A stretch of DNA of 64,000 nt from a virus (IMGVR_UViG_3300037471_001733:22201-86200); one strand, 5' to 3'. Positions 4,456 to 19,547 are shown, numbered from the stretch's first letter. A program made the numbers and translations. Notes: a model not told the origin generated them from the sequence alone.

Positions 4456-4457
4456 GG

Positions 4458-5933: not shown

Positions 5934-5936
5934 GAC

Positions 5937-6380: not shown

Positions 6381-6398
6381 TGCAGGTTCTCCAGAAGA

Positions 6399-6650: not shown

Positions 6651-6663
6651 GAGGTGTTGGCGC

Positions 6664-6690: not shown

Positions 6691-6727
6691 TAGGTGATCC
6701 GTATCTGAGAGCGCTATTAGTTGCGCC

Positions 6728-7216: not shown

Positions 7217-7227
7217 GTGGCCTCCTC

Positions 7228-7256
7228 AAAAAGAAAAGCCGCCCGAAGGCGGCTTG
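7228..7256 (-). terminator. rho-independent terminator after the 145-aa gene
   Basis: AGCCGCC(7237-7243)/GGCGGCT(7248-7254) stem, cgaa loop, T-rich tail on minus strand. Confidence 0.7.
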
Positions 7257-7276
7257 ATGGTTGCAAGTGAAGCGGC

Positions 7277-7714
7277 TTAGGCCGGCGTGCTAGCCGGGTG
7301 GCCCTTGATCACGTTCACGGCGATGGGCGTGCCAGCGCCGTGGGTGCCGCTGAAATCAGCGGTGACCTTCAGGTAACGGCGTTCGCCGATGTAGGCCACC
7401 TTGGCGACGGTGGCCGCAGCGTGAGCAGCGGTCAGCGAGCGCACGATGCCGCCGGTGCCCACGCTGGAGTCAGCGTTGGTCAGAAGGCGCACGTCATCAC
7501 TGGTCACGGCGGTGTACGTGGTGTCGTCCTTCGAGTGAGTCAGCAGGAACTCGATCTTGTTGGACGTGGTGAACGTGATGCCGCCGACGCCGACACCGAT
7601 GGAGACAACGGCGCTGTCGAAGCCCTTGAGATCAATGGCAGAGGAGGTCGTGTCGCTGGACAGCGTGGCGTTGAGCGCCGGCACGATGGAGATGTTGTTA
7701 GCGAGGTCTCGCAT
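7277..7714 (-). CDS. hypothetical protein (145 aa), candidate capsid decoration/cement protein
   Basis: First gene after major capsid gene, flanked by terminators; beta-rich sequence (AIDLKGFDSAVVSIGVGVGGITF...); function inferred from position only. Confidence 0.5.
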   Translation of the reverse strand: MRDLANNISIVPALNATLSSDTTSSAIDLKGFDSAVVSIGVGVGGITFTTSNKIEFLLTHSKDDTTYTAVTSDDVRLLTNADSSVGTGGIVRSLTAAHAAATVAKVAYIGERRYLKVTADFSGTHGAGTPIAVNVIKGHPASTPA

Positions 7715-7736
7715 GACAATTCCTTTGGAAGCCTGG

Positions 7737-7770
7737 GTGAAGAAAGGCCTGTCAGTGCAGGCCTTTTTCA
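7737..7770 (-). terminator. bidirectional stem-loop terminator after major capsid gene
   Basis: AAAGGCCTG(7743-7751)/CAGGCCTTT(7758-7766), 6-nt loop, T-rich runs on both strands. Confidence 0.7.
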
Positions 7771-7785
7771 GTGGTCAGTCGTGGA

Positions 7786-9033
7786 TCAGGACGCGGAAAT
7801 TTTGAGCTTCTTCATCGCGTCGCTCTGACGCACGCCGCCACCGACGCGCTTGCGGGCGCGGTACACCACGAGGCCGTTGTCGGCTTCGGTGATGTAATCG
7901 GCCTGGAAGCCCAGGCCGATGCGATCAACGATGGTGTATGCGCGCTTGAAGTCACCCCACAGCACCGGGTAGGCGCTGGCCGCGATGTCCGGAAGGTCAG
8001 GGAACTCAACGTACGGAGCGCCCAAGATCGTGTTCGCCACGGCGTTGGCGAAGCCAGGGGTCCAGAGGTAGTTGCCTTGGCCGTCCTTAAGCTTGCGGAT
8101 GTCACGGATGGTCTTGCGGTTCAGCGCGAACATCGCGTTGGCAGCGTAGGCCGTCTTCAGCTCGAACTGCAGGTTGATCAGGCCGTCAGACGTGATCTTG
8201 GTAGCGTCGCCGCTGACCACCTCACCGATGCCAGAGGCCACCAGCAGGCCCTCCATTTGCTGAGCGGCGGAGCCAACGCCGTTGATGGACTCGGCGCCTT
8301 CCTTCACGGCCATCTGCTCGGCGACTTCCATGCGCAGCTCGCCAAGGAGGTCGTAGTCCGAATCCTCCAACATCTGTTGCGACACGCGGTTGCGCGCGAA
8401 CATTTCCGGGGCCGTGATCTCGCCCATCCCATACTTGGGATCGGTCGTGTCCGTACGGGTCTCGATTTCACCGACGCGCTTGGCGCTGCCGGTGCCGACA
8501 CGCTTGGGCCACTTGTACGAGTGGCCGCCGATAATGCGCACGGTGGCGAGTCGACGGATGGGCGACTGCTCCACGATGTCCTTGAGGATCGCGCGCTCCA
8601 GATCCGGCGGGGCAAGCAGGTAGCCGGCGGACTGGTCGTCGCCCTTCACCAGAGACGCCATGTGCGTCTTGATGACCTGCATGTCCTCCAGCGAGCGGGC
8701 CTCATGGCGGGTGCGCATCACGCGGTTGAACGCGGCTTGCAGCTTGGCGTTCTCGGCGGCGGAGTCGGCAGCGGTGGAGCCGGGGCGCTGCAGCATGGTC
8801 TGGACTTGATCCAGTTGCTCCTGCATGGCCTTCGCAGCATTCTGCTGGGCCAGCAGTTGCTGGTTCATGTTCTCGTAGCGATCCAGCGTATCGCTGATCG
8901 CCTCGACCTTGGCAGTCAGGTCGCCAACGGCCTTGCCGTCAGCCTTGGCCGAGATGAGCTTGTCGTTGTGCTCACGCAGTTGCGTGACGGCTTCCATTAC
9001 TTCCTGGATGCCATCATTGGTGATGTTGGGCAT
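7786..9033 (-). CDS. major capsid protein, HK97 family (with N-terminal delta/scaffold-like coiled coil)
   Basis: 415 aa. N-terminal coiled coil then GGYLLAPPDLERAILKDIVEQSPIRRLATV... typical HK97-fold MCP; position after ClpP-like protease. Confidence 0.9.
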   Translation of the reverse strand: MPNITNDGIQEVMEAVTQLREHNDKLISAKADGKAVGDLTAKVEAISDTLDRYENMNQQLLAQQNAAKAMQEQLDQVQTMLQRPGSTAADSAAENAKLQAAFNRVMRTRHEARSLEDMQVIKTHMASLVKGDDQSAGYLLAPPDLERAILKDIVEQSPIRRLATVRIIGGHSYKWPKRVGTGSAKRVGEIETRTDTTDPKYGMGEITAPEMFARNRVSQQMLEDSDYDLLGELRMEVAEQMAVKEGAESINGVGSAAQQMEGLLVASGIGEVVSGDATKITSDGLINLQFELKTAYAANAMFALNRKTIRDIRKLKDGQGNYLWTPGFANAVANTILGAPYVEFPDLPDIAASAYPVLWGDFKRAYTIVDRIGLGFQADYITEADNGLVVYRARKRVGGGVRQSDAMKKLKISAS

Positions 9034-9050
9034 TTGGATTCCTACAGACG

Positions 9051-9078
9051 TAAAAAAGCCCGCTCGGGGCGGGCTTCG
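9051..9078 (-). terminator. rho-independent terminator/attenuator between protease and capsid genes
   Basis: AAGCCCGC(9056-9063)/GCGGGCTT(9069-9076) stem, T6 run on minus strand. Confidence 0.65.
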
Positions 9079-9099
9079 TTGGGCTTGGGGACGGTTTGG

Positions 9100-10182
9100 C
9101 TACTTGCTGATGAGGCTCAGGATGTGGGCCTTCAGGTTCGCCAGCTCGGTTGCGCTTTGCTCGTCACGAGCAGGCGCGGCCGGAGCCGCAGGTGCGGCAG
9201 CGGCGGGTTCCCGAGACTCGTCGCGAGGCCCGGTGTGCAGCGCGGCCTTGGCCAGTGCGATGACGCACTTGGCCTCGGCCGCAGAAAGGCCAACCGCATC
9301 ACGCAGTTGGCGCTCAAGGATGCGGACCTCAGGCGTGCCGTCGTCGTCGCCGGCAGGCACGAGGTCTTGCGGGGTGTTCTTGAAGAAGGGCAGCATGGCC
9401 GAGCGCGCATGCGTCAGCGCGGCCTTCTTCTCCTTCTTCTTGGCCGGCACCATCGTGTCGGCGAATCCTTTGTCCACGGCGTCCTGGCCGCGGAACCACG
9501 TTTCGGCGTCAACCCACGAGGCGATTTCGGCGCGGTCGCCACCGGTGCGCGCGACGTAGATGTCGATGAGGCCGGCTTCCAGCGTGTCCAGCACGTCGGC
9601 TTCCTTGCGCAGGGCCTTGGCGTTGCCGGCGAGAATCGTCCACGGCGCGTGGATCATGAAGTTCGCGCCTTCAGCGATGCGGATCTCGTCGCCGGCCATC
9701 GCAATTACGGAAGCGATGCTGGCGGCAATGCCATCGACGTGCACGATGATCTTGGCCTTGTGCGTGGCCAGCGCGTTGTAGATGCTGACGCCGTCGAACA
9801 CGGACCCGCCTGGCGAGTTGATGTGTACGTGCAGCTCATCAGCATCCAGCGCGGCGAGTTCGCGCACTGTGTCCTCGGCATTAACGCCGCCGTCCCAGTA
9901 GCCGCCGATGTCGCCGTATACAAACAGCTTCGGCGCTTCGCCTTCGTCGGCGGCCAAGCGCAGGTGGCCAGGGCCCAGCGCGCGCGGCGCCAGATTCATT
10001 GCCCGCTCGGGCAGGCCGGCGAGATTGATGACGGGTTTGGTCATTGCGGCCGTCCCTTCCTCATTGCTTTCTTGTTCCTCGCCCAACTCGGAGAGGACTG
10101 CGGCCAGCGACACCTGAGCGTCGCGGATGCGAGATTCGTTGCGGGCGCTCAGCACGCGCCCGGCGTTCAGACGTTGGCCCAT
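9100..10182 (-). CDS. prohead maturation protease, ClpP/S14-like, with C-terminal scaffold-like extension
   Basis: VYGDIGGYWDGGVNAEDT...HINSPGGSVFDGVSIYNAL...VDGIAASIASVIAMAGD ClpP-fold signature; between portal and MCP. Confidence 0.85.
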   Translation of the reverse strand: MGQRLNAGRVLSARNESRIRDAQVSLAAVLSELGEEQESNEEGTAAMTKPVINLAGLPERAMNLAPRALGPGHLRLAADEGEAPKLFVYGDIGGYWDGGVNAEDTVRELAALDADELHVHINSPGGSVFDGVSIYNALATHKAKIIVHVDGIAASIASVIAMAGDEIRIAEGANFMIHAPWTILAGNAKALRKEADVLDTLEAGLIDIYVARTGGDRAEIASWVDAETWFRGQDAVDKGFADTMVPAKKKEKKAALTHARSAMLPFFKNTPQDLVPAGDDDGTPEVRILERQLRDAVGLSAAEAKCVIALAKAALHTGPRDESREPAAAAPAAPAAPARDEQSATELANLKAHILSLISK

Positions 10183-10185
10183 GGG

Positions 10186-11481
10186 CTACCCTTGGTTGCG
10201 CGCTGAAAGCGCTTGACTGGATGCCGCCAAGTCGTTGTTGTCTTGCTGTGCCGGGGCCGCGCCAGCGGGGTTGCTTGGCATGCCTAATTCCGGATCAGAG
10301 GCGTCGCCCATGTTCACGGGCGCGCGGTAGATTTCGCCGCCCTCGTACGGGTTCTGCTCCTCGTAGGCGCGGATCTCGTTCGCGTTGAGCGCGCCCATCT
10401 GCCAGAGGCGGAAGTAGTACTCGGCGCGGTCACGCGCGGCGCCGCGCATCAAGGCATTGGCGTTGAACTTCGCGTAGATACCGTCGTCCAGGTCACGCTC
10501 GCTAAGCAGGTTGCAGTCGATGCTCTGCTCGATGCGTTCGTACCAAGGCGCCAGGCAGTGCACCACGTGCGCCAGGAACATCTGCTCCGCGCTGGCGTAA
10601 GTGGCCGTCTTGTCGCTGTAGCCGACCATCAGTGGCGCGCACCTAAAAATTCTGCACACCTCTTCGATCTGGTGACGTCTCGTTTCGAGATGCTGGCTAT
10701 CAACGCCCGTCATCGACGTCGGCACAAACTTGGCGCCGCGGTCAAGAATCATCGGGCGGAATCTCGCTTCGCCTGTCATGTTCTTCTCGACCCAGTTGCG
10801 CAGAGCAAGGAACTGGTCCGGAAGCAGCTTGTCGTCCACGCTGTAGATGCCAGTGGACTGCGCGCCATTGGCATGCATCAGCGCATGCGCCTCTTCGGTC
10901 GCCATCGCAAGGCCTATGGCCTCGCGAGCCAACTGCAACGGCTTTAGGCCGTCATAGCCGTTCCAACTCAGCCCTTTGACGTGCCAGATCGCCTCAGCCG
11001 GGAAGTCCTGCGACTGCCCAGTGATCTCGCTGCTTACGCGGTACACCGGCCGGCGGAACTGGTCCACATCCACGCACACCTCGTGCGGGAGAAACGGGAT
11101 CAACTCGCGGATCTTGCCGTTGACGACGTTCTTGAACGCCACGAAACGACCGGCCAAGCACACATGCGCGGCCAGCATCTCGCGGAACTCGAAGGACGTC
11201 TGCCAAGGGTTCGGCCGGCGGTACAGCACGCGATACAGCGGGTGGTCCTTCGCCGGATCGCTGCCGCCGTCGTCACGCTCCTTGTAGAGCTTCAAGGGCA
11301 CCTGCGCGATGCCCTCGGCAATCACGCGCACGCACGCCAGGACCGTCGTCACCTGCAGCGCGGTTTCCACCGTGACGTTCTGACCCGAACGCGACGCAGG
11401 AAACCAGCCGCTCCAGAAAGGCTCAGTGAACGCCTGCGCCCGGCGCTGCCGCGGCGCCATCATCTTCGACAGGAAACTCAC
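10186..11481 (-). CDS. portal protein, HK97 family
   Basis: 431 aa; ETALQVTTVLACVRVIAEGIAQVPLKLY and overall pattern of HK97-type portals; between TerL and protease. Confidence 0.9.
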   Translation of the reverse strand: MSFLSKMMAPRQRRAQAFTEPFWSGWFPASRSGQNVTVETALQVTTVLACVRVIAEGIAQVPLKLYKERDDGGSDPAKDHPLYRVLYRRPNPWQTSFEFREMLAAHVCLAGRFVAFKNVVNGKIRELIPFLPHEVCVDVDQFRRPVYRVSSEITGQSQDFPAEAIWHVKGLSWNGYDGLKPLQLAREAIGLAMATEEAHALMHANGAQSTGIYSVDDKLLPDQFLALRNWVEKNMTGEARFRPMILDRGAKFVPTSMTGVDSQHLETRRHQIEEVCRIFRCAPLMVGYSDKTATYASAEQMFLAHVVHCLAPWYERIEQSIDCNLLSERDLDDGIYAKFNANALMRGAARDRAEYYFRLWQMGALNANEIRAYEEQNPYEGGEIYRAPVNMGDASDPELGMPSNPAGAAPAQQDNNDLAASSQALSARNQG

Positions 11482-11756
11482 TCGGCAGCCTTCCCGTCAC
11501 CGGCACGCGCGCGGATGCCCATCAGGCCCAGGCCCAGCGCCAGCAAGCCGCCGACGATGAAGCCAGCCGGCAGGGAGTACAGGCCGGTGCCATAGGCAAC
11601 AGCCCCGGCGCCGCCCAGCGCCAGCATGTCCGGCATCAGAAAGGCCAACAGTTCGCCGCCGGCCGCAATCAGGCCCAGCATGGCGCGGCCAAGGGTCAAC
11701 ATTCGGCGGGCCAGAAATGTCCTGGCACCGGCGATCTTCGTTCGCAGGTTTTTCAC
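11478..11756 (-). CDS. small membrane protein (92 aa)
   Basis: ATGA overlaps at both ends; Gly/Ala/Leu-rich with at least 2 predicted TM helices. Confidence 0.5.
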   Translation of the reverse strand: MKNLRTKIAGARTFLARRMLTLGRAMLGLIAAGGELLAFLMPDMLALGGAGAVAYGTGLYSLPAGFIVGGLLALGLGLMGIRARAGDGKAAE

Positions 11757-13513
11757 GGCGTCAGGACTTCCCAGAATGACTTTCCAGTGGACTCGGTGGT
11801 TCTGGACATCAAGCCCACGGCCATCACAGCCGCCACGATGAGGTCGATGCGGCCCGTGGCCTTTTCCTTGCTGAGCTTGCGGTTCTCGGCGTCATCCATC
11901 ACCGTCACCGCGTTGCTCGCACACCAGTTGAAAACTGGGTGGTCGTTGTGCGCCAACTCGTTGTTGAGCAGCATTCGCTCGAACTCTTCAACGGCTGGCG
12001 AAGCCTCTTTGTAACCTTGCCCGAACGCGACCATGGGCGGTAGGCTGATGCCTTCGTCGTCGGCAAGCGCCAGCAAGTCTTCGATGCGCCAGCGGTCGTA
12101 TGCGACGCCCTGGATCTCGAATGCCTCGGACAGCGCGGACAGCCGCTGCAGCACGTTGCGCTTGCTGATCGCGCGCCCCGGCGTGGTGTCCAAGTGCCCG
12201 GCAGCTTTCCACTGCACGTAGGGCACTCGATCGGTTTCGGCCTTCTTCTGCAGCCCCTCATCAGGCAGCCAGGCGAACGGCACTAGGTGCCACGGCTCGC
12301 CTTCCTCTTGCGGCTCAACCAGCAGCACCAGCCCCGTAAGGTCGGTGGTGGACGACAGGTCCAGCCCGGCCCAGGCTCGCCGGCCGCGCAGGTCTTGCCA
12401 GTTGAAGGTGCGAATCGCACTCTTCCAAACGTCGGCCGACAGCCACGGCGAATCGGCATCCGTCCACTGGCAGAAATTCAGCCGGCGGACGATCGCCTCC
12501 TTAGACGGCATGCCGCGCGCTTCGGTCACCTGCTCGCGCAGGTACTTCATGCCCGGCAGATCGGCGTCCTGCAGCGAAGGGTTGGCCTTCACCCAGCACG
12601 ACTCGTCCGAGAAAGGATCCTCGCCTTCATCTAGGGCGCACACGAAACTGAAGAACGCATCGTCCTCCAGCGTCCCCGCTGCGACCTTTGCGCCGTACTC
12701 GTGGTACGCCCAGCACGGCCCCCGTTTGTCGGAGCCGCTGTTGGTGATCATGAAGATCAGCGCCTGCCGCCGGCTCTTGGTGCCGGCGCGCATCATCTCC
12801 ACGACCGTGTTGGTCTTGTGCTCGTGCAGCTCGTCGATGAGCGCAATGTGCGGCCGCGGGCCGGACTGCCCATCGTCCGAGCTGATCGGGCGGAAGAAGC
12901 TGCCGGCCTGCAGGTAGGCCAGGTTCCACACCCGCTCGCCCGTGCCGCTCTTGGTCAGCCGCTTAGCGAGTTCCGGCGACTGGTCCACCATGGCCACCGC
13001 GTCGCGGAAGAGGATCATGGCCTGATCCTTCTTCGTCGCCGCAGCGTAGACCTCTGCGCGCGCCTCGCTGTCGGCGGTCAGGCCAAGAAGCCCAATGCCC
13101 GCCGAAAGGGGCGACTTCCCGGAGCCCTTGGCCGTCTCGACGTAGGCAACACGGAACCGCCGCCAGCCGTCAGAACCCTTCCAGCCGAACAGACTGCCGA
13201 TGACGAATTTCTGCCACGGCAGAAGCTCGAAGGGCTTTCCCTCAAAGTCGCCGCCGTTGAGCTTCAGGACGTTGCGGTAGTACCGCAGCGCCTTCAGGGC
13301 GGTCTCCAGGTCCCAATTCAGGCCGCGTGCCGGGCCTTTCTCCAGGTCGCGCAGGTGGCGCGCGCATGCCGCGCGCACATGCGGGCCGGCGATGCGTTTG
13401 CCGTCAACGACGGATTGGGCGTACTCGGTGACCGGATCGTCACCAGTCGGGACGTCAGCCGAAGAATTCCTGTAAGTGGTCTTCCTTTTGGTCGTCGTCG
13501 GCGTTTTGGACAT
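11753..13513 (-). CDS. terminase large subunit (Terminase_1 type)
   Basis: 586 aa; Walker-A-like VETAKGSGKS, LIDELHEH Walker-B-like, C-terminal nuclease region; follows TerS. Confidence 0.9.
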   Translation of the reverse strand: MSKTPTTTKRKTTYRNSSADVPTGDDPVTEYAQSVVDGKRIAGPHVRAACARHLRDLEKGPARGLNWDLETALKALRYYRNVLKLNGGDFEGKPFELLPWQKFVIGSLFGWKGSDGWRRFRVAYVETAKGSGKSPLSAGIGLLGLTADSEARAEVYAAATKKDQAMILFRDAVAMVDQSPELAKRLTKSGTGERVWNLAYLQAGSFFRPISSDDGQSGPRPHIALIDELHEHKTNTVVEMMRAGTKSRRQALIFMITNSGSDKRGPCWAYHEYGAKVAAGTLEDDAFFSFVCALDEGEDPFSDESCWVKANPSLQDADLPGMKYLREQVTEARGMPSKEAIVRRLNFCQWTDADSPWLSADVWKSAIRTFNWQDLRGRRAWAGLDLSSTTDLTGLVLLVEPQEEGEPWHLVPFAWLPDEGLQKKAETDRVPYVQWKAAGHLDTTPGRAISKRNVLQRLSALSEAFEIQGVAYDRWRIEDLLALADDEGISLPPMVAFGQGYKEASPAVEEFERMLLNNELAHNDHPVFNWCASNAVTVMDDAENRKLSKEKATGRIDLIVAAVMAVGLMSRTTESTGKSFWEVLTP

Positions 13514-13928
13514 GAACCTTGGACCTCGCGGCCGGCGTCAGCCCGAACTCGACCAGCCACGCCTTGAAGCGCCGGTCGGCATCGGCCAGCATGGCCACCG
13601 CCGGGTTCGCTTTGATGCTGCGGTCGCCCTGCGTGTTCGTTGTTTCGTAGGTAGGGCCGTCCTGGTTCACCAGTTCCTGATACCGCAGGATCTCGGCGTA
13701 CACGGCGCAGCCTCTCTCAAGGGCGTAGGCATCGGCCTCGGTTAGCACGCCCATCCGATCCAGCAGCACAGACATGCGGCCCCAGGCAACCTTGGCCTCG
13801 TCGGACAAGTGGCTGGGGCAACTAGGTATCTCGCGGCGTGGTTTGGGCTCGCTCTTGTTGAGCGCGCGCCTTCCCGGGTTGCCTGTAACTATTTTTAAGT
13901 GGCTCGGTTTTGGCCTGCGCCCCGCCAT
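13455..13928 (-). CDS. terminase small subunit, P27 family
   Basis: MAGRRPKPSHLKIVTGNPGRRALNKSEP...CPSHLSDEAKVAW matches P27-family TerS pattern. ATG 13928 chosen (AAGGA RBS, 4 nt after HNH stop); alternative ATG 13955. Confidence 0.8.
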   Translation of the reverse strand: MAGRRPKPSHLKIVTGNPGRRALNKSEPKPRREIPSCPSHLSDEAKVAWGRMSVLLDRMGVLTEADAYALERGCAVYAEILRYQELVNQDGPTYETTNTQGDRSIKANPAVAMLADADRRFKAWLVEFGLTPAARSKVHVQNADDDQKEDHLQEFFG

Positions 13929-13932
13929 ATCT

Positions 13933-14214
13933 CTATTCCTTGACTGGCCAGCCATCCACCCCGATCACCGGCCGAACTCGATGACCTAGATCTCGCGCCG
14001 TTTTGTCACGGTGACAGGGGGTACATAGCCCCTGAGCCTGGCCCGGGTCTTCGTGGAAGTCCTTGCCGCCGTTGACTAGCGCGACTTTGTGGTCCAACTG
14101 AGTTGCGGCAGCAAGTCGGCCATGGCGTGAGCACTCAGCACAAAGCGGGTTCAGCCGCAAGTAGTAGTCGCGGAACCGCTGCAGCGGGCGGCCACGCAAG
14201 CGATCAGTGGCCAT
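13933..14214 (-). CDS. HNH endonuclease (terminase-associated, HK97 gp74-like position)
   Basis: 93 aa; CAECSRHGR...LDHKVALVNGG...CTPCHRDKT HNH motif; immediately upstream of TerS. Confidence 0.85.
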   Translation of the reverse strand: MATDRLRGRPLQRFRDYYLRLNPLCAECSRHGRLAAATQLDHKVALVNGGKDFHEDPGQAQGLCTPCHRDKTARDLGHRVRPVIGVDGWPVKE

Positions 14215-14223
14215 GCGCGCCTC

Positions 14224-14263
14224 GGGAAAGAAAAGGCCCGCCTGCCGGAGAGCCGGGGCGAGC
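14224..14263 (-). terminator. rho-independent terminator downstream of the tRNA-like gene
   Basis: Extended imperfect hairpin centred on CCGG-AGAG-CCGG (14245-14256) followed on minus strand by CCTTTTCTTTCCC. Confidence 0.55.
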
Positions 14264-14272
14264 AGAAACCTG

Positions 14273-14359
14273 TGGCGCGGACGGCTGGGCTCGAACCAGC
14301 GACCTGCAGCGCTGGTCTTTGCGAACCCGCTGCTTCTCTACCGGCTGAGATACGCCCGC
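14273..14359 (-). tRNA. tRNA-like gene (87 nt) with non-canonical 28-nt anticodon arm; anticodon not assignable; possible pseudo-tRNA
   Basis: Hand fold: acceptor GCGGGCG/CGTCCGC + G + CCA, D arm TCTC-AGCCGGTA-GAGA, T arm GCTGG-TTCGAGC-CCAGC. The anticodon region GCAGCGGGTTCGCAAAGACCAGCGCTGC is 11 nt too long. Confidence 0.55.
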
Positions 14360-14363
14360 GTCG

Positions 14364-14394
14364 GAAACGAAAAAGCCCGCGCGAGGCGGGCTTT
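14364..14394 (-). terminator. rho-independent terminator after the zinc-ribbon/HNH gene
   Basis: AAGCCCGC(14373-14380)/GCGGGCTT(14386-14393), then TTTTTCGTTT on minus strand, ending 5 nt before the tRNA-like 5' end. Confidence 0.65.
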
Positions 14395-14552
14395 GAGAAA
14401 TCTGCAGAGACACCTATCCCACGGACCTGTCGGAATTGGGATAGATTCACCGGGAGGCCGTAAGCGTAGCCGGCGTGGGCCAATTGTACGGCTTGTTGTC
14501 TTGCACACGCAACAGGGGCTGTCAAGGGCTCGCGAGCGACGCCCACATATCT

Positions 14553-15449
14553 CTATAACCCCAACTGCAGTTGACCAAGAGACTTGCTTCCCTTGGACCG
14601 GTTGCACCCAAAGCACTCGCACTGCGTGTTGCTATAGCTGTGTGGACCTCCATCGCGCAGGCTGACAACGTGACCAAGCTCCGGTGCGCCCTCAATCCTC
14701 TTGCCCATCTTCGACCTCGGCGTCTTAATGCCGCAAATCTTGCAGCGCCAGCCGTCGCGCTCAAAGACAGACAGCTTGTCCACCTTCTCGTACTCGCAGC
14801 CGAACTTTCTGGCGCGACGCCGATGCGTGGTGCCGCTAGTGGCTCTGTAACGGTAGCTCAGCTGACAGGCTATCGAGCAGTACTTTTGGCGCAGGTCGCC
14901 ATAGTCCGGCGTGAACGCAACTTCGCAGAAGCCGCACTTGCGAGGCGACCGGTCGCGGCTACGCTCTTGCTTCTTCCGATTGTAAACCTTGCTCCTGCAT
15001 TTGCTGCTACAGAAGTTCGCATCCGGCATCTTGGCCATGAAGTCGCGCCCGCAGGACGGGCTGGCGCAGACCCTGGCATAGCGCAGCTTATTCTGGCCGC
15101 GCTCCTTTTTCTCCGGCGCTGGAACGCACTCATAGCAGAACTTGCGCGGCTTGCCGTTCTTAAATAGTGGCTTTGGGTGGCGGCAGCCGTTTTCATTCCG
15201 GGTCCTGCACTCGTCGGAGCAATGACTGCGGCGCAGCTTCGTCGGCTTGAAGGGCATTCCACAGTAGGCGCATAACCGCGGCGGTTTCGGAGGCACGGGC
15301 GGATTCTTCCGTGGTCGTCCAGCGCCAGGACGGCGGCCGCCAGAGTTTGGACGCGGGCCACCGCGCTTTGAACGCGACGCCTCGACCAGTGCGCATAGCG
15401 CGCCTTTGCAGCCGCCAACAGACAGCCGCCTATACTCGCCTTCAACCAT
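14553..15449 (-). CDS. multi-zinc-ribbon protein with C-terminal HNH endonuclease domain (298 aa)
   Basis: Four CxxC...(F/Y)CSxxC repeats, Lys/Arg-rich, then WRCKICG...ELGHVVSLRDGGPHSYSNTQCECFGCNRSKG HNH motif. Confidence 0.75.
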   Translation of the reverse strand: MVEGEYRRLSVGGCKGALCALVEASRSKRGGPRPNSGGRRPGAGRPRKNPPVPPKPPRLCAYCGMPFKPTKLRRSHCSDECRTRNENGCRHPKPLFKNGKPRKFCYECVPAPEKKERGQNKLRYARVCASPSCGRDFMAKMPDANFCSSKCRSKVYNRKKQERSRDRSPRKCGFCEVAFTPDYGDLRQKYCSIACQLSYRYRATSGTTHRRRARKFGCEYEKVDKLSVFERDGWRCKICGIKTPRSKMGKRIEGAPELGHVVSLRDGGPHSYSNTQCECFGCNRSKGSKSLGQLQLGL

Positions 15450-15649
15450 GCTGACTTCCTATACAAGTTGGTATGGCCAGAGACCCGGTCGTGTTGCAAG
15501 CGCGACTGGGTTTCGCCATTTTGGCCTAGAACCAACAAATCTGCTGGACAAAACCACAGTTCCCAGGGCGCCAAGAATTTCCTCTCAAAACGCGCCTCTG
15601 AACAGCAAGGTCAACCGATGGTTTACAAGCCGAGGGCTGGGAAGAACTG

Positions 15650-16200
15650 ATTGGGGTATTGGGGGGTGCGCCTCGACTCTCCCCACGCCCAGCCGCGCCA
15701 GCTGTCAGCGCACGAGCTGCCGCTCAGCACGAGCTGCGCCGCTCGATCCCTGCTGGTGCTGGTGCTGCGCGTTGTCACGAGGGGTGCGGCGCCGCCTGGC
15801 TGTCGAGTGCCTGCGGTTATGTGGCGAGGGTCTGCCGCTGCGCCAGTGCACCCGGGCCGCTGCGCGGCCGTGCTCCTGGTGGTGGCGTGCTGGAGCTCCG
15901 ACCGATCGGCGCAGGCAAGCGCCATGGTGCGAACGGTGCACGAGGGAATGCGGCGCAGTGCTGGTGCCTGCGGCTTAGTGGAGTGCTGCGGCTTTGTGGA
16001 GTGGCGCAACTAGTGGAGTGCGCCGTGCTGCAGGGCATGGCGCCATGGACAGGGGTGCAGCGCTGCTGCGCCGCTGGTGCTGTCTCACCCGTGCCGATCG
16101 GCTTCCGCTGCAGGGGCGCTGGTGCTGGAATGCAGGCACCAAAGCAAAAGGGCCGCACGAGGCGGCCCATGGCGTGGAGTGCTTTGGTCTAGGTGCTGGC
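15650..16200 (+). repeat. non-coding, strand-asymmetric GTGC(T/G)G-rich array (array L)
   Basis: About 20 GTGC vs about 5 GCAC by hand count; local tandem units (GCACGAGCTGC x2 at 15709-15745; T(A/T)GTGGAGTG x3 at 15976-16022); no credible ORF. Confidence 0.6.
16141..16169 (-). terminator. rho-independent terminator ending the leftward small-gene operon
   Basis: GGGCCGC(16150-16156)/GCGGCCC(16162-16168), then CTTTTGCTTT on minus strand, 20 nt after stop at 16189. Confidence 0.7.
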
Positions 16201-16440
16201 GGCTTTCCGCTCCCGTCCTATACGGATGGCATGGGCAAGCGCGGCCATCTCCCGACCGTTGTCGTAAGGGCCGCGCGCCACCGGCTTTTTGCTGATGCCT
16301 GCGGCTGGCAGCAGGCCAACGAAGCCGGCTTCGTCCACGAAGTCTAGATATGTCATGGCGCCGATGGTCTTGACTGCGATGACACAAGCAACGCTGCCGC
16401 CGCCGATGGTGGGGCGCATGAAAAGGTCCCCGGCTTGCAT
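16189..16440 (-). CDS. hypothetical protein (83 aa)
   Basis: ORF, last gene of leftward operon; no motif recognised. Confidence 0.5.
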   Translation of the reverse strand: MQAGDLFMRPTIGGGSVACVIAVKTIGAMTYLDFVDEAGFVGLLPAAGISKKPVARGPYDNGREMAALAHAIRIGRERKAAST

Positions 16441-16452
16441 GGCGTCCCCTCC

Positions 16453-16746
16453 TCAGTGGGCCAGCAGATGCCGCACGCTGGCGCCATCCGGTATCCGCAG
16501 CATTGCCGCCACTGCATCCACGTATTCCGGTGCAGGCCGGCGCAATTTGTACTGCTGGTCTCCATACGAGTTGGGAATGGTGCGCGATTCAATCAAGCCG
16601 CGTTCCCTAAGCGCGCGGAATGCCCGGGTGTCATCTTCTGGCGCCACCTCAGCAGCGGCGGCAATGTCATGCCATGAGGGGAGACGGATAGTCCCGTCTG
16701 CATTGGTACGGGAAGCGAGCAGGGCATACAGACGATTGAGGTTCAT
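16453..16746 (-). CDS. hypothetical protein (97 aa), possible winged-helix DNA-binding protein
   Basis: Internal ATG 16746 chosen (upstream part of ORF is Arg-rich junk overlapping previous gene); FRALRERGLIESR... wHTH-like segment. Confidence 0.45.
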   Translation of the reverse strand: MNLNRLYALLASRTNADGTIRLPSWHDIAAAAEVAPEDDTRAFRALRERGLIESRTIPNSYGDQQYKLRRPAPEYVDAVAAMLRIPDGASVRHLLAH

Positions 16747-16757
16747 GGCGCGGCCCC

Positions 16758-17132
16758 TCAGATGTCCCAGACGCCATCCACGGTCGCGCCGTGCGCCGCC
16801 TCGTGGGCGTGCGCCGCGATGGCCGCCACGAGGCGCCCGCCGGGCGTTGCTTCCAACGTATCGCCCTCGCTGCACTGGTACTGCAGGCACCGCGCCAGCG
16901 AATGGAACCATGCGGCGGTCTGATTTGGCATGGGGCGCGCCAGCAGTGCACGCAGGCCCTGCAGCGGCTGCCGATCCTCCGGGTAACGCCCCTCATAGCG
17001 GGTTGCGTGGGCGTAGTTGTTGGCTGCACGCAGCGAGATAGCCGCCTGCGCCGCATCGTCGGCGATGCCCTGGGAAACGGCCCATTGCGCCACGGTGGCC
17101 ACGTGCAGATCAGAGCAGATAAAGCAAGACAT
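16758..17132 (-). CDS. hypothetical protein (124 aa)
   Basis: ORF with GGAGATCACACCATG RBS context; no motif recognised. Confidence 0.55.
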   Translation of the reverse strand: MSCFICSDLHVATVAQWAVSQGIADDAAQAAISLRAANNYAHATRYEGRYPEDRQPLQGLRALLARPMPNQTAAWFHSLARCLQYQCSEGDTLEATPGGRLVAAIAAHAHEAAHGATVDGVWDI

Positions 17133-17182
17133 GGTGTGATCTCCTATTGCCGCTCATGCTGGCGGCGCAGCGGGTTGAAGGG

Positions 17183-17452
17183 TTAGTCCTCGCGCGGTGT
17201 CTCAATTTGATGCGGCAGGGGTCGCCCCATGCCGTCGGCGCAGTAAAGGGACGTAGAAGCACCGCACGGCAGGTATGCCGGCGCGTCAATTGGCCCGCCT
17301 GCCGTCACATCCATACATGCCCCGTACCGAAATTGCCGCCGGTCTTGATGCAGATGGATCAATTCGACCGTCTGCCGTTGGACTTGCCCGCCGGTCACAT
17401 TGTGGAAAGCGCCAGCAGCAGCGCGGCGGATGGTTTCTGATTGCATGGACAT
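17183..17452 (-). CDS. hypothetical protein (89 aa)
   Basis: Starts at conserved junction TGAGGAGCGAACCATG (17450-17465). Confidence 0.5.
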   Translation of the reverse strand: MSMQSETIRRAAAGAFHNVTGGQVQRQTVELIHLHQDRRQFRYGACMDVTAGGPIDAPAYLPCGASTSLYCADGMGRPLPHQIETPRED

Positions 17453-17462
17453 GGTTCGCTCC

Positions 17463-17681
17463 TCAGTTGAAGCCCTTGTCCGCCTCGATCTGGCGCAGGA
17501 TCTCGACTGCCTCAGCGATCGGCACGAAGTCAGACAGGGGGTCAACAATCGTTTTCTTGCCCACGGTCACCAGCACGACGCGAAACTTTCCGCGCGCCGC
17601 CTCAGTGCTGATTCCGGGCATGCCGGTGGCGGCGCGCGCGGCAAGGGTGGCGGCTCGCAATTGCTTGAGTTGCTCAAACAT
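17463..17681 (-). CDS. hypothetical protein (72 aa)
   Basis: Starts at conserved junction TGAGGAGCGAACCATG (17679-17694). Confidence 0.5.
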   Translation of the reverse strand: MFEQLKQLRAATLAARAATGMPGISTEAARGKFRVVLVTVGKKTIVDPLSDFVPIAEAVEILRQIEADKGFN

Positions 17682-17691
17682 GGTTCGCTCC

Positions 17692-17931
17692 TCAGATACC
17701 GAAAACTTGATTGATCGCAGCGCGGCGCAGTGCCTCGCAGTGCATCTGCGCCACGGGTTGATTGATCTCGTCCACCACGTCAAGTGCATCGTTAACGGCA
17801 TCCATGAGATGCGCCATGGCGATATCTTCCGGGTTTGCTTCTACGTGATTGCGCAACTGCAGGCGGGCGCTCAGCAGGTTTTCGACGATCACGTCGAATT
17901 GCTTGACATGCATGGTCACAGGGGTGGGCAT
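17692..17931 (-). CDS. hypothetical protein (79 aa)
   Basis: Starts at related junction TGAAAGGTCGAGCCATG; helical sequence. Confidence 0.5.
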   Translation of the reverse strand: MPTPVTMHVKQFDVIVENLLSARLQLRNHVEANPEDIAMAHLMDAVNDALDVVDEINQPVAQMHCEALRRAAINQVFGI

Positions 17932-17942
17932 GGCTCGACCTT

Positions 17943-18176
17943 TCAGCGCATGTTGATGTAACCCGGCATGCCGAGTGCGCGCGCCAGCACGTTTGCCGCG
18001 TGGCGGTCTGCAAGGTTGCATATCAGGTACTTGGCCTGCGCGACCGCTTCGAAGTGCGCGCTCTGCGCCTCTTCGTATTCCTGATGGGTTCGATTGCTGT
18101 CGCCGATCATGTGCACGTGGCCACCGATGGCGGGCCGCAATTCCTTGGCGATGCTGATGGCAGTTCGGATATTCAT
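17943..18176 (-). CDS. hypothetical protein (77 aa)
   Basis: Starts at conserved junction TGAGGAGCGAACCATG (18174-18189). Confidence 0.5.
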   Translation of the reverse strand: MNIRTAISIAKELRPAIGGHVHMIGDSNRTHQEYEEAQSAHFEAVAQAKYLICNLADRHAANVLARALGMPGYINMR

Positions 18177-18186
18177 GGTTCGCTCC

Positions 18187-18318
18187 TCAGTGCGCCGCAC
18201 GAATGGCGGCAATGTCTGCATGGATCAGCGCGCGGACTTGCAGGCGGCGCACGAGGGATTGATCGTTGCGCATGGGTAGCAGAACCCGCAGCGCATACAT
18301 AAGAGAGAAACGAGACAT
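18187..18318 (-). CDS. hypothetical small protein (43 aa), first gene of leftward operon
   Basis: Below ORF-track cutoff. ATG 18318, stop inside the conserved junction; MSRFSLMYALRVLLPMRNDQSLVRRLQVRALIHADIAAIRAAH. Confidence 0.4.
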   Translation of the reverse strand: MSRFSLMYALRVLLPMRNDQSLVRRLQVRALIHADIAAIRAAH

Positions 18319-18366
18319 CTCAACCCCTTGCCACTGATTACGCGCGGCGCCGTTTGGTATGTCTCT

Positions 18367-18395
18367 AATGTAGGCGATACGACTACATGATGCAA
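18367..18395 (-). promoter_or_regulatory. candidate sigma70-type promoter with embedded operator (copy A, leftward)
   Basis: Minus strand reads TTGCAT-catgtagtcgtatcgcc-TACATT (17-nt spacer); spacer carries TGTAG-N9-CTACA inverted repeat. Confidence 0.55.
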
Positions 18396-18419
18396 GCCCT
18401 TGCGCAAACTTTTTTCATG

Positions 18420-18660
18420 CGCCATGGCGGCGCGGCTGCACGTATATTGATAGTGCTGCGCCGCATAGGTGCGGCTTTGCTTTGCCTGCTCGCTTTTGCC
18501 TGCTGGTGCTGCAGCATGGGCACGAGTGCCTGCGCCATGGATGCGCCGCACTGGTCTGCGCGCCGTGCGCCGCCTCGTGCTGATCAGCTGCGCCGCCGGT
18601 CGAGCTGGTGCGCGACGTTGAGCGGCTGCCTCGTGCTGGCAATCGAGCGAGTGCGCGACC
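18420..18660 (+). repeat. non-coding GTGC(T/G)G-rich array (array R), related to array L
   Basis: About 9 GTGC on plus strand; shares exact words cctgctggtgctg (13 nt) and cgagtgcctgcg (12 nt) with 15.65-16.2 kb, same orientation. Confidence 0.55.
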
Positions 18661-18667
18661 TGGCGCA

Positions 18668-18764
18668 CCCCCTCTGATGGAAACACAGGCAACCCCCTGG
18701 AGTGGAAACACAGGCCAGGCGCACCCTCTCCACGGGAATTACGGAACCCCCTGAGATGGAAACA
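18668..18764 (+). repeat. four tandem iteron-like units CCCCCT-N4-TGGAAACA(CAGG)
   Basis: Copies at 18668-18685, 18693-18710, 18747-18764 plus degenerate 18723-18739 (CCCTCT-N4-GGGAATTA); 24-30 bp spacing; array ends 20 bp upstream of promoter copy B. Confidence 0.65.
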
Positions 18765-18784
18765 GGAATTCACAAATAAACTAC

Positions 18785-18813
18785 TTGCGTTCTGTAGTCG
18801 TTGCGCCTACATT
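18785..18813 (+). promoter_or_regulatory. candidate promoter with embedded operator (copy B, rightward)
   Basis: TTGCGT-tctgtagtcgttgcgcc-TACATT (17-nt spacer); nearly identical to copy A in inverted orientation. Confidence 0.55.
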
Positions 18814-18872
18814 GGACACATCGCAGCACTGCTGCAGCGGCGCCACCCGCGACGAGTGGCACTGGAGTTGAT

Positions 18873-19547
18873 ATGTTTGGAAAATACGGCAAGCGGATTA
18901 CCGATCCTGCGGAACTGCGCGAGTATCGTTTGAGCTATGTCCCGGCCGCGCTGCGCGACCAGTGCCAGCACGTGAAGTGCAAAACCGGCGATGCTGAGGC
19001 GTGGATCTGGAGCGACAAGGGCCGCGCCTACGCGGTGGGTTTCTCCGGTCGCGGCAAACACCCGTGGTCGCGCAATGGTGGCCAGGGAGCGGCCTACTAC
19101 TTCAAAACCCCGGAAGCGCGCCGCTCCTGGGTTGCGGAACTGTTTGCAGACGCCATGGCCGACGCAAAGCGCGCCGAGGAGCGCAAGGCGCAAAAGGCCG
19201 CAGCGCGTGCAAAGCCGCACGCCTTGCAGGTGGGAGATGTGTTGCGCTCCTCCTGGGGGTACGACCAAACCAATATCGACTATTACGAGGTCACGAAGCT
19301 TGTCGGCTCACAGATGGTCGAGGTTCGGCGCATTGCCTGCCAGTCTGAGGAAACCGCGCACATGCAAGGCGTGAGCGTTCCCGCCCCTGGCCACTACATC
19401 GGCGAGCCGAAGCGTTGCAAGGTCTCCGACTACGGCAACCGCGACTCGGTCAAGGTGTCCGAGGTGGCGCACGCCTACAAGATGACCCCGCGCATCGTCG
19501 GCGGCGTCAAGGTTTTCAACTCGTCTAGCTGGACGGCCTACGCCTGA
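18873..19547 (+). CDS. hypothetical protein (224 aa), type I associate with plasmid/ICE accessory regions (memory only)
   Basis: ATG 18873 with GGAG RBS; basic/Ala-rich linker then VGDVLRSSWGYDQTNIDYYEVTKLVG... beta domain. Confidence 0.55.
   Translation: MFGKYGKRITDPAELREYRLSYVPAALRDQCQHVKCKTGDAEAWIWSDKGRAYAVGFSGRGKHPWSRNGGQGAAYYFKTPEARRSWVAELFADAMADAKRAEERKAQKAAARAKPHALQVGDVLRSSWGYDQTNIDYYEVTKLVGSQMVEVRRIACQSEETAHMQGVSVPAPGHYIGEPKRCKVSDYGNRDSVKVSEVAHAYKMTPRIVGGVKVFNSSSWTAYA

What the first reader, a model, noticed from the sequence alone, without database searches (positions are those of the whole stretch)
15650..16200. Strand-asymmetric GTGC(T/G)G-rich non-coding arrays flanking the leftward small-gene operon
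About 550 bp (15650-16200) and about 240 bp (18420-18660) have no credible ORF and are packed with GTGC words on the plus strand. By hand I count roughly 20 and 9 GTGC, versus about 5 GCAC in the first array, several-fold above what this base composition should give.

The two arrays share exact 12-13-nt words (cctgctggtgctg, cgagtgcctgcg) in the same orientation and contain local tandem units. They bracket the 16.19-18.32 kb operon as degenerate direct repeats.

I considered four explanations:
- Chi-like recombination-hotspot clusters (GCTGGTGC resembles E. coli Chi GCTGGTGG).
- C-rich rut-type Rho entry regions on the minus-strand transcript, insulating early from late genes.
- Protein-binding arrays.
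- Recombination scars delimiting a cassette.

I cannot discriminate between these from sequence alone.
Basis: seen in the sequence. Interest (0 to 1): 0.55.

Follow-up and report, generated by a model that had tools for sequence, protein, structure and literature searches.

The report
Hypervariable GC-rich spacers in a phage
Two gene-free, GC-rich, repetitive stretches really do bracket a small early operon of a temperate phage, and the few related phages carry equally odd but unalignable stretches at the same places, so they look like position-conserved spacers (probably transcriptional insulators next to the packaging site) and not recombination-hotspot (Chi) clusters.

Summary
Array 1 (15650-16200) has 21 GTGC against 6 GCAC, where about 3.5 are expected. 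It is the most word-redundant stretch of the window. Array 2 (18420-18660) has 9 against 3. Neither array codes for protein or matches a known or structured RNA.

The window is an HK97-like temperate phage of a Burkholderiales-type host. Array 1 lies between the intrinsic terminator of an eight-gene minus-strand operon and a conserved 200-nt leader. That leader holds a covarying hairpin and a weak cos-like motif, and it precedes the HNH/terminase late operon. Array 2 lies just upstream of the operon's promoter.

An Azohydromonas prophage has arrays in both slots. Two metagenomic relatives have array 1. The sequences do not align and the cargo genes are unrelated. The scaffold, high GC and sense-strand T-poverty (7-11%) are kept.

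The signature word GCTGGTGC lies on the strand that would be inactive for RecBCD entering at the inferred right end. It shows no genome-wide strand bias. The Chi-like octamer of this phage is GCTGGCGC, and the arrays hold only one copy.

My best reading (about 0.35) is slippage-built insulator spacers. Neutral spacer, protein-binding array and Chi-type gate remain open.

The parts
15650..16139 (.). Array 1: ORF-free, 70% GC degenerate-repeat spacer. The plus strand is rich in (T)GCTGGTGCTG / GTGC. The minus (operon-sense) strand is C 40%, G 31%, A 19%, T 11%.
   Evidence: Counts. Redundancy. Word enrichment of 175- to 290-fold for 8-mers. T-poverty at the 0.14th percentile. No coding or RNA signal.
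16140..16168 (-). Intrinsic terminator of the small-gene operon (GGGCCGCCTCGTGCGGCCC + TTTTGCTTTG).
   Evidence: Similar hairpin-plus-TTTTGCTTTT terminators sit in L002 at 6784-6807 and 4681-4701.
16189..18318 (-). Operon of eight small genes (43-124 aa) of unknown function. Three gene junctions read TGAGGAGCGAACCATG.
   Evidence: None has a homologue in any fetched relative.
18359..18396 (-). Promoter-like element for the operon (TTGCAT-17 nt-TACATT) with an embedded palindrome TGTAG-N9-CTACA. It is the left arm of a 38-nt inverted repeat.
   Evidence: Inverted repeat I1. Hexamers read from the sequence. A similar block sits in L002 at about 5193-5234.
18420..18660 (.). Array 2: ORF-free, 68% GC spacer with the same vocabulary as array 1. 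It contains a plus-strand terminator-like hairpin at 18455-18485.
18667..18769 (.). Three 24-nt direct repeats (ACCCCCTNNNNTGGAAACACAGGC), probably regulator sites upstream of the rightward promoter.
   Evidence: Family D1. A partly alignable block sits in L002 at 4716-4830.
18784..18821 (+). Second copy of the promoter/operator (TTGCGT-17 nt-TACATT), facing right toward the 224-aa gene at 18873-19547.
   Evidence: (I1, 82% complementary to 18359-18396).
15450..15649 (-). Conserved AT-richer leader of the late operon. It holds a covarying stem-loop at 15481-15513 (loop GCTTGCAACAC) and a weak cos-like block at about 15573-15613.
   Evidence: Alignments. Hairpin covariation across five phages. 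Contigs of two other phages start 194-199 nt upstream of the start codon, which corresponds to window position ~15645.
14553..15449 (-). Zn-ribbon/HNH protein (298 aa), the first gene after the leader. It is followed by a 131-aa gene, HNH (93 aa), TerS and TerL.

Best explanation
The two arrays are non-coding, fast-evolving spacers that fill two fixed slots of a conserved regulatory scaffold. They are GC-rich and T-poor on the operon-sense strand.

**Slot 1** lies between the intrinsic terminator of the early small-gene operon and the leader of the HNH/terminase late operon. That leader carries a weak cos-like motif. **Slot 2** lies immediately upstream of the operon's promoter.

**How they are built.** Duplication and replication slippage of short units build and turn them over. 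This explains why words such as GCTGGTGCTG pile up on one strand.

**What selection appears to keep.** Presence, length and composition are kept. Sequence is not.

**Most likely role: insulation.** This step is inferred, not shown.
- A transcript that reads through the terminator becomes about 500 nt of untranslated, U-poor, C>G RNA. Rho can load on such RNA and stop it before it reaches the packaging site and the late genes.
- The GC-rich DNA is free of promoters and keeps the AT-rich control regions apart.

**Shown here:** anatomy, lack of coding, conserved position with unconserved sequence, and composition.

**Inferred:** Rho action, and the position of cos.
For: **Anatomy**
- Array 1 starts right after a strong intrinsic terminator and ends at the conserved leader.
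- In L002 (Azohydromonas aeria prophage, TerL 84% identical) both slots are filled, at 6820-7640 and 4830-5170. Each follows an intrinsic terminator and precedes the next transcription unit.
- L163 has a 550-nt array of 86% GC with C at 53% in slot 1.
- The L162 contig starts inside such an array.

**Sequence against composition**
- The sequences do not align between phages.
- Sense-strand T is 7-11% in all six arrays. In the window this is the 0.1-0.5th percentile.
- C exceeds G by 7-19 per 100 nt across the window's array 1 and by 10-31 in L163.
- Array composition (C 0.40, G 0.31) matches third-codon positions of the same operon (C 0.40, G 0.32).

**Origin by slippage**
- Micro- and minisatellite seeds are present in every array.

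**Alternatives excluded**
- No ORF, Pfam, Rfam or RNA-structure signal.

**Persistence**
- The arrays persist across relatives whose adjacent protein is only 41-68% identical. This argues for selection on their presence.
Against: - Array 1 of L002 is G-rich on the sense strand (G 43%, C 34%). That makes it a poor Rho substrate.
- In the window, array 2 sits between divergent promoters, where no read-through transcript is expected.
- The GC skew of array 1 is only in the top ~5% of windows. Many coding stretches match it.
- Its RNA is no less structured than shuffled controls (z = -0.39).
- An intrinsic terminator already precedes it.
- Dispersed exact copies of one 8-10-mer with varying flanks hint at a sequence-specific role. 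A pure composition model does not need this.
- Only four phages carry the feature, so the synteny statistics are thin.
- Relatives with a different upstream module (L083, L193, L197) have tRNA genes or other sequence in the slot instead.
Confidence: 0.35

Rival explanations
1. The arrays are neutral spacer DNA. They are slippage-generated low-complexity sequence that accumulates at a module junction, or next to the packaging site, where nothing is selected. They could at most offer microhomology for recombination. The shared vocabulary reflects common descent and within-genome gene conversion.
For: - No conserved sequence between phages.
- Composition equals that of synonymous sites of the same operon.
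- Microsatellite seeds are present.
- Word sharing is higher within a genome than between genomes and occurs in both orientations.
- Cargo genes between the arrays are completely replaced in L002.
- Three assemblies of two phages break at the array/leader boundary. Strain-level hypervariability would produce this.
Against: - Phage genomes lose useless DNA quickly. Yet 240-820-nt arrays occupy the same slots in phages whose neighbouring protein is only 41-68% identical.
- The L163 array (86% GC, 53% C) exceeds the GC3 of its own genes (74%).
- Sense-strand T-poverty is extreme and uniform.
- Homology between phages resumes at the promoter and terminator, so the arrays are not the recombination joints.
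Confidence: 0.25
2. The arrays are Chi-type clusters. GCTGGTGC, or GCTGGYGC, would be recognised by the host RecBCD. The arrays, placed at the right end of the packaged genome and around the early cassette, would attenuate degradation and focus RecA-dependent recombination there. This is the model proposed for phages LLS and MD8.
For: - GCTGGTGC differs by one base from both the E. coli Chi (GCTGGTGG) and the Pseudomonas Chi (GCTGGCGC) (PMC5959072).
- Right-end clustering of Chi is documented in lambdoid phages (PMC12315714).
- The word is 175-fold enriched in the arrays and its flanks vary.
- It is the most common 8-mer shared by arrays of the window and L002, and one copy sits in the L162 fragment.
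- The distal part of L002 array 1 has 5 GCTGGTGC and 4 GCTGGCGC on the active (top) strand within 500 nt of the leader; a fifth top-strand GCTGGCGC lies in the proximal part.
- GCTGGCGC is the most frequent octamer of the window (53 observed, 23-29 expected). It is biased 35:18 toward the terminase-sense strand.
Against: - In the window all 7 array copies, and the L162 copy, lie on the inactive strand for entry at the inferred right end.
- L002 carries both orientations, and L163 has none.
- GCTGGTGC shows no genome-wide polarity (10 against 11).
- The arrays hold only 1 of the 53 GCTGGCGC copies.
- The phage has its own RecT and RdgC genes, unlike the Chi-rich class that lacks a Rec module.
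- No Chi is established for Betaproteobacteria (PMC8022716).
Confidence: 0.15
3. The arrays are multi-site binding platforms for a phage or host DNA-binding protein. Candidates include the adjacent Zn-ribbon/HNH protein, TerS during cos recognition, and a regulator or nucleoid protein. The protein would read short words (GCTGGTGCTG, GCGCCATGGCGC-like palindromes) scattered through the arrays.
For: - Several dispersed word families occur, including palindromic CGCCATGG(CG) (4-5 copies, about 30-fold enriched).
- Array 1 abuts the cos-like leader and the packaging genes.
- The Zn-ribbon/HNH gene co-occurs with array 1 in the window, L002, L162 and L163.
Against: - No word is conserved in all four phages. 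L163 shares almost none.
- Copies show no regular spacing or helical phasing (gaps of 6, 202, 113 and 45 nt).
- Homologues of the HNH protein occur without arrays (L193, L197).
- There is no binding evidence of any kind.
Confidence: 0.15
4. The arrays are a hidden gene or a structured non-coding RNA.
For: - Plus-strand ORFs of 120-177 aa exist.
- 8 of the first 10 GTGC lie in one codon phase, and that ORF has GC3 of 0.79.
Against: - No Pfam hit.
- No gene was called on the identical contig.
- No conserved translation in relatives.
- The overall phase distribution, 11/6/4, is not significant.
- The ORFs are explained by A-poverty.
- No Rfam match.
- Folding z-scores are -0.39 and +0.14.
Confidence: 0.03

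Closest known systems
Right-end clusters of Chi sites in lambdoid phages LLS (E. coli) and MD8 (P. aeruginosa), Genome Res 2025 (PMC12315714)
   Same: A G-rich, Chi-related octamer is concentrated near the genome end opposite the terminase genes. In L002 the distal array carries 9 GCTGGYGC on the active strand. GCTGGCGC is the most frequent octamer of the window, as Chi is in MD8.
   Different: - There the sites are the host's proven Chi, spread over many kb inside genes, and almost all on one strand genome-wide (20:3 and 32:0). Those phages lack a Rec module.
- Here the word is a one-base variant packed into 0.2-0.5 kb of non-coding DNA.
- In the window it lies on the inactive strand and has no genome-wide polarity.
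- This phage encodes RecT and RdgC.
Rho-dependent terminators / rut regions, such as lambda tR1 (from general knowledge; Rho loads on untranslated, C-rich, G-poor RNA of about 80 nt or more)
   Same: A long untranslated stretch lies between two operons, with C>G and few U on the transcript in the window, L162 and L163. It sits where early transcription must be kept out of the late genes.
   Different: The arrays are 3-10 times longer than a rut site and still hold 31-33% G. They are no less structured than shuffles, they follow an intrinsic terminator, one relative is G-rich, and array 2 is not downstream of a co-directional operon in the window.
Morons and exchangeable accessory cassettes of HK97-like phages (promoter-gene-terminator units; from general knowledge, Juhala et al. 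2000)
   Same: The small-gene operon has its own promoter and terminator. Its cargo is wholly replaced in the closest relative while the scaffold is kept.
   Different: Morons are not described as being flanked by long GC-rich repeat arrays. The arrays lie outside the conserved promoter and terminator boundaries.
Bacterial micro- and minisatellite (slipped-strand) repeat tracts
   Same: (GCTGGT)n, an 18-nt x3 unit and many 6-24-nt seeds are present. Turnover is rapid, and strand asymmetry arises from direct duplication.
   Different: Only small parts score as tandem repeats. Most of each array is a mosaic of dispersed words, and its position is conserved between distant relatives.

Membership tests
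Phage Chi-site cluster (LLS/MD8 type) | The repeated word is the Chi sequence recognised by the host RecBCD. | not testable with these tools
   The host is unknown and no host genome is available here. No Chi is established for Betaproteobacteria (PMC8022716). GCTGGTGC is one base from both the E. coli Chi and the Pseudomonas Chi (PMC5959072).
Phage Chi-site cluster (LLS/MD8 type) | Sites lie on the strand whose 3' end is at the right genome end (the top strand when terminase genes are at the left). | tested here: not met
   The window has 0 on top and 7 on the bottom strand in the arrays. The single L162 copy is on the bottom strand. L002 is mixed: in array 1, GCTGGYGC is 10 on top and 4 on the bottom. 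This test rests on cos being in the leader, which is itself inferred.
Phage Chi-site cluster (LLS/MD8 type) | The same word shows genome-wide excess and strand polarity. | tested here: not met
   GCTGGTGC is 10 on plus and 11 on minus. Outside the arrays it is 3 and 11. GCTGGCGC does show excess and a 35:18 polarity, but only 1 copy lies in the arrays.
Phage Chi-site cluster (LLS/MD8 type) | The phage lacks its own recombination module. | tested here: not met
   RecT (50382-51374) and RdgC (54917-56038) are present.
Rho-dependent terminator / rut region | At least about 80 nt of untranslated RNA downstream of a coding region. | tested here: met
   There are 490 nt with no credible ORF between the operon's terminator and the leader.
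Rho-dependent terminator / rut region | The transcript is C-rich and G-poor. | tested here: inconclusive
   The window has C 40%, G 31% and U 11%, with C-G of +7 to +19 per 100 nt. L163 and L162 also have C>G. L002 array 1 has G>C. This skew is not unusual for the window.
Rho-dependent terminator / rut region | The RNA has little secondary structure. | tested here: not met
   MFE is -221.5 kcal/mol against a shuffle mean of -219 (z = -0.39).
Rho-dependent terminator / rut region | Termination depends on Rho (is sensitive to bicyclomycin). | not testable with these tools
   This needs term-seq or RNA-seq of an infected or induced host.
Direct repeats delimiting a mobile or recombining cassette | The two flanks align with each other as repeats in one orientation. 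| tested here: not met
   The longest shared word is 13 nt. There are 25 direct and 19 inverted shared nine-mers and no extended alignment.
Direct repeats delimiting a mobile or recombining cassette | Homology between relatives breaks at the repeats. | tested here: not met
   The cargo differs completely, but similarity resumes at the promoter block and the terminator, not in the arrays.
Protein-coding gene | An ORF with family membership, coding composition or conserved translation. | tested here: not met
Known or structured non-coding RNA | An Rfam match or folding beyond shuffled controls. | tested here: not met
   There is no Rfam hit at gathering score in the window. Folding z-scores are -0.39 and +0.14.

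The most novel reading that the evidence does not exclude
The arrays are polar recombination gates. They would be clusters of a Chi-type or recombinase-directing word set on both sides of the first-injected early accessory cassette, at the right end of the chromosome. Host RecBCD/RecA or the phage RecT would then be steered to exchange that cassette between related phages while the scaffold stays intact. This would explain the complete cargo replacement between the window and the Azohydromonas prophage, and the sharp array/leader boundary at which independent assemblies break.
Probability: 0.08. Interest if true: 0.7.

Novelty: new variant of a known kind. Interest (0 to 1): 0.35.

Why it matters
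Suppose the arrays are selected for composition and length only. They would then be a clear phage example of non-coding DNA conserved in position but not in sequence, acting as an insulator between an early accessory operon and the packaging/late region. That is useful for annotating and engineering temperate phages of high-GC hosts. It also explains why assemblies break there.

If the Chi-type reading were right, it would extend the recently described right-end Chi strategy to Betaproteobacterial phages and point to their host's Chi sequence.

As things stand, this is a real but modest oddity in a poorly sampled phage group.

Tried and rejected
**Searches that found nothing useful**
- DNA searches of the phage collection with the region found nothing in either near or distant mode.
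- A viral-contig scan with the 298-aa protein found nothing.
- A look-up of the protein by exact sequence returned only an identical contig.
- TerL-based loci (160 from genomes and viral contigs) gave one syntenic relative, L002. The next closest (L083, TerL 86%) has a different upstream module and a tRNA in the slot.
- Scans for the leader hairpin pattern gave only L191, whose hairpin region reads the same as L002's, in viral contigs. They gave one 1.6-kb contig with no upstream sequence in metagenomes. The other 27 viral hits were coding-sequence matches.
- Homologues P0006, P0007, P0008, P0010, P0012, P0013 and P0014 sit in other architectures without arrays.

**Readings rejected**
- Coding: frame composition, the phase of GTGC, Pfam, and six-frame comparison with relatives.
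- Structured RNA.
- A simple base-skew explanation. The skews are only in the top 1-5% of windows, whereas the word excess is unique.
- Helical phasing of the GCTGGTGC copies. None is seen.

**Left unresolved**
- I considered that the shared contig starts of L198, L199 and L205 mark the physical cos end. I did not adopt this, because the motif resembling the cos of relatives lies about 60 nt further in.

Full report
**1. What the window is**

The window is phage DNA of about 64% GC. On the minus strand, positions 1-15449 carry a late operon, listed here in order of transcription, from high to low coordinates:
- a 298-aa Zn-ribbon/HNH protein (14553-15449)
- a 131-aa gene
- a 93-aa HNH endonuclease (13933-14214)
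- a P27-type small terminase
- the large terminase (11753-13513)
- portal, protease and major capsid protein

The closest large terminases belong to prophages and viral contigs of Burkholderiales: Azohydromonas aeria at 84%, and two IMG/VR contigs at 86%. RecT and RdgC genes lie further right. No tRNA and no Rfam family are found in the window.

**2.

Counts and enrichment:
- Array 1 (15650-16200) has 21 GTGC against 6 GCAC, 9 GTGCTG against 1 CAGCAC, and 5 GCTGGTGC against 0.
- Array 2 (18420-18660) has 9 GTGC against 3 GCAC, and 2 GCTGGTGC against 0.
- The window-wide rate predicts 3.5 and 1.5 GTGC.
- Array 1 is the top-ranked 550-nt window for all three word pairs. It is also the most 6-mer-redundant stretch of the window, at 115 against a mean of 13.8.
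- Roughly half of the excess is local dinucleotide composition. The remainder is higher-order: a Markov-1 model expects 11.2, P = 0.002.
- The truly enriched words are pieces of (T)GCTGGTGCTG, at 175- to 290-fold for 8-mers.

Relation between the two arrays:
- The arrays share 25 nine-mers in direct orientation, against about 5-7 expected. They also share 19 in inverted orientation. They share a vocabulary but they are not alignable repeats.

Coding status:
- No Pfam hit.
- No gene called on an identical public contig.
- No conserved translation in relatives.
- The long plus-strand ORFs follow from the lack of A, and therefore of stop codons, on that strand.

**3. Anatomy around the arrays**

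The operon between the arrays has eight small minus-strand genes (18318 to 16189). Three of the gene junctions are near-identical, reading TGAGGAGCGAACCATG. None of the genes matches a PHROG of known function.

The operon ends with a strong intrinsic terminator at 16168-16140.

Array 1 proper runs from 16139 to 15650. It abuts a 200-nt AT-richer leader that precedes the 298-aa gene.

To the right of the operon sits a promoter-like element (TTGCAT-17 nt-TACATT) with an embedded palindrome. It recurs as a 38-nt inverted copy at 18784-18821, facing the other way. Between the two copies lie array 2 and three 24-nt direct repeats.

**4. Relatives**

Only a handful of relatives share this module.

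*L002, the A. aeria prophage.* L191 is a viral-collection contig whose leader hairpin region reads the same as L002's.
- It has homologues of the 609-aa gene, the 298-aa gene, HNH, TerS and TerL. It has none of the eight small genes.
- It has the same scaffold: terminator, short repeats, GC-rich array (4830-5170), a similar promoter block, a small-gene operon, a similar terminator (6784-6807), an 820-nt GC-rich array (6820-7640), the leader, and the HNH gene.

*Two metagenomic relatives found through the 298-aa protein.*
- L163 has a 550-nt array in slot 1 with 86% GC and 53% C.
- The L162 contig begins inside such an array.

*The leader* is conserved in all of these. It contains a stem-loop with covarying stems and a conserved loop GCT(T/G)G(C/T)AACAC.

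*The arrays* do not align between phages. The arrays of the window and L002, and the L162 fragment, share more 8-mers than controls do. The most common shared 8-mer of the window and L002 arrays is GCACCAGC on the operon-sense strand, and L162 carries one copy. L163 shares almost nothing.

*Composition* is the constant feature:
- GC lies well above the genome mean.
- Sense-strand T is 7-11% in all six arrays. In the window this is the 0.1-0.5th percentile.
- C exceeds G in the window, L162 and L163. The order is reversed in L002 array 1.

Every array contains micro- and minisatellite seeds.

**5. Where the packaging site probably is**

- Many independent contigs of related phages start at one homologous position, about 55 nt upstream of TerS. 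The motif there is CCTCTTTGCGCACACCCGCGAAATGGG...TTTTT. This is what a physical cos end would produce.
- In the window and in L002, the HNH and TerS genes abut, leaving no room for such a site. A weakly similar block lies in the leader at about 15573-15613.
- Separately, contigs of two further phages start within one nucleotide of the same homologous position, 194-199 nt upstream of the start codon. These are L198 and L199, which are identical and come from two samples, and L205, which is 68% identical to them. That position corresponds to window ~15645, exactly at the array/leader boundary.
- This boundary could be a physical end. It could also be an assembly break where strains diverge, or where extreme GC defeats sequencing. 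I cannot tell which.
- In either case array 1 most likely lies within about 100 nt of cos, at the right end of the packaged chromosome. This is an inference.

**6. The Chi idea**

A 2025 paper shows that lambdoid phages lacking recombination genes concentrate the host Chi near the right genome end, on the strand read by RecBCD entering there. P. aeruginosa phage MD8 does this with the Pseudomonas Chi GCTGGCGC (PMC12315714, PMC5959072).

Evidence against it in the window:
- All seven array copies are on the opposite, inactive strand. GCTGGTGC has no genome-wide polarity (10 against 11).
- The octamer that does behave like Chi here is GCTGGCGC. Its complement is the single most frequent octamer of the window (53 observed, 23-29 expected). 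It is biased 35:18 toward the terminase-sense strand. Five copies lie on that strand in the right-terminal 2.4 kb, mostly inside the small genes. Only one copy is in the arrays.
- The phage has RecT and RdgC.

Evidence that keeps it alive:
- The distal half of L002 array 1 fits the Chi model well, with 5 GCTGGTGC and 4 GCTGGCGC on the active strand.
- However, L002 also carries inverse copies, and L163 has none.

The Chi cluster therefore fails the membership tests for the window's arrays. It stays alive as a minority reading.

**7. Weighing the explanations**

- Coding and structured-RNA readings are excluded as far as sequence analysis can exclude them.
- The reading of direct repeats delimiting a cassette is half right. 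The cargo is swapped, but similarity between phages resumes at the promoter and terminator, not in the arrays.
- A protein-binding platform cannot be tested here. No word is conserved across all four phages, and there is no regular spacing.
- What remains is DNA kept for its presence, length and composition, and generated by slippage.

I judge an insulator role most likely, at about 0.35. Untranslated, U-poor and mostly C>G RNA lies downstream of an intrinsic terminator, just before the packaging site and late operon. Promoter-free GC-rich DNA also separates the AT-rich control regions.

The main weaknesses of this reading are:
- the G-rich array in L002
- the position of array 2 between divergent promoters in the window
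- the ordinary folding energy of the transcript

Purely neutral spacer DNA is the next most likely reading, at about 0.25. It is disfavoured mainly because the arrays persist across distant relatives.

**8. Verdict**

The feature is real, statistically strong and conserved in position. It occurs in a poorly sampled phage clade, and its mechanism is not resolved by sequence alone. It is a moderate curiosity, and I did not find a new kind of system. The most useful follow-ups are end mapping, term-seq with Rho inhibition, and octamer statistics of the host genome.

Noticed in passing
window 18359-18396 and 18784-18821: A 38-nt inverted repeat (82% complementary) places two near-identical promoter-like elements back to back, 387 nt apart. 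Each reads TTGCAT or TTGCGT, 17 nt, then TACATT, and each holds the palindrome TGTAG-N9-CTACA between the hexamers. This looks like one repressor controlling two divergent early promoters.
   Followed up: partly
window 18667-18769; L002 4716-4830: Three 24-nt direct repeats (ACCCCCTNNNNTGGAAACACAGGC) lie between array 2 and the rightward promoter. A partly alignable repeat block occupies the same place in the Azohydromonas prophage.
   Followed up: partly
window 15481-15513 (minus strand); L002 7774-7808; L162, L163, L198, L205, L201: A conserved stem-loop lies about 35-45 nt upstream of the Zn-ribbon/HNH gene. Its stems covary and its loop GCT(T/G)G(C/T)AACAC is conserved. No U-tract follows it, so it is not an intrinsic terminator. 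Its function is unknown.
   Followed up: partly
whole window: The most frequent octamer is GCGCCAGC, the complement of the Pseudomonas Chi GCTGGCGC. There are 53 copies against 23-29 expected, biased 35:18 toward the terminase-sense strand. Five copies on that strand lie in 15650-18050. In plus-strand gene regions the bias does not follow gene orientation (9 against 10).
   Followed up: partly
L198, L199, L205 position 1; corresponds to window ~15645: Contigs of two different phages from three samples start within 1 nt of the same homologous position, at the array/leader boundary. This is either a physical DNA end or a reproducible assembly break at a hypervariable, GC-extreme array.
   Followed up: partly
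starts of L085, L098, L139, L143, L145, L153 and other contigs; L083 9530-9585: Many independent contigs of related phages begin at one motif, CCTCTTTGCGCACACCCGCGAAATGGG..TTTTT, about 55 nt upstream of TerS. This is the probable cos of this terminase family. In the window and in L002, HNH and TerS abut and this intergenic site is missing.
   Followed up: partly
window 17449-17466, 17678-17695, 18173-18190: Three gene junctions in the small-gene operon are near-identical on the minus strand: stop codon, Shine-Dalgarno and start read CTGAGGAGCGAACCATGT. This suggests translational coupling or recent duplication of the junction.
   Followed up: no
window 18455-18485 (plus strand): A terminator-like hairpin with tail TTTGCTTTGC lies inside array 2 on the plus strand. 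Its tail resembles the TTTTGCTTT tails of the operon terminators. No plus-strand transcript that it would terminate is evident.
   Followed up: no
L083 9110-9198; L193 2299-2376: Relatives without arrays carry a tRNA gene in the slot just upstream of the HNH/terminase cluster. ARAGORN calls the one in L083 tRNA-SeC (anticodon tca) and the one in L193 tRNA-Met. L193 and L197 also share a conserved, apparently structured leader there.
   Followed up: no
L163 1310-1850: The divergent control region of this relative holds four copies of a promoter-like module (GTTGTATATATAGCCC..GTAGGCTATA), two in each orientation, separated by GC-rich spacers. This echoes the twin-promoter layout of the window.
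   Followed up: no
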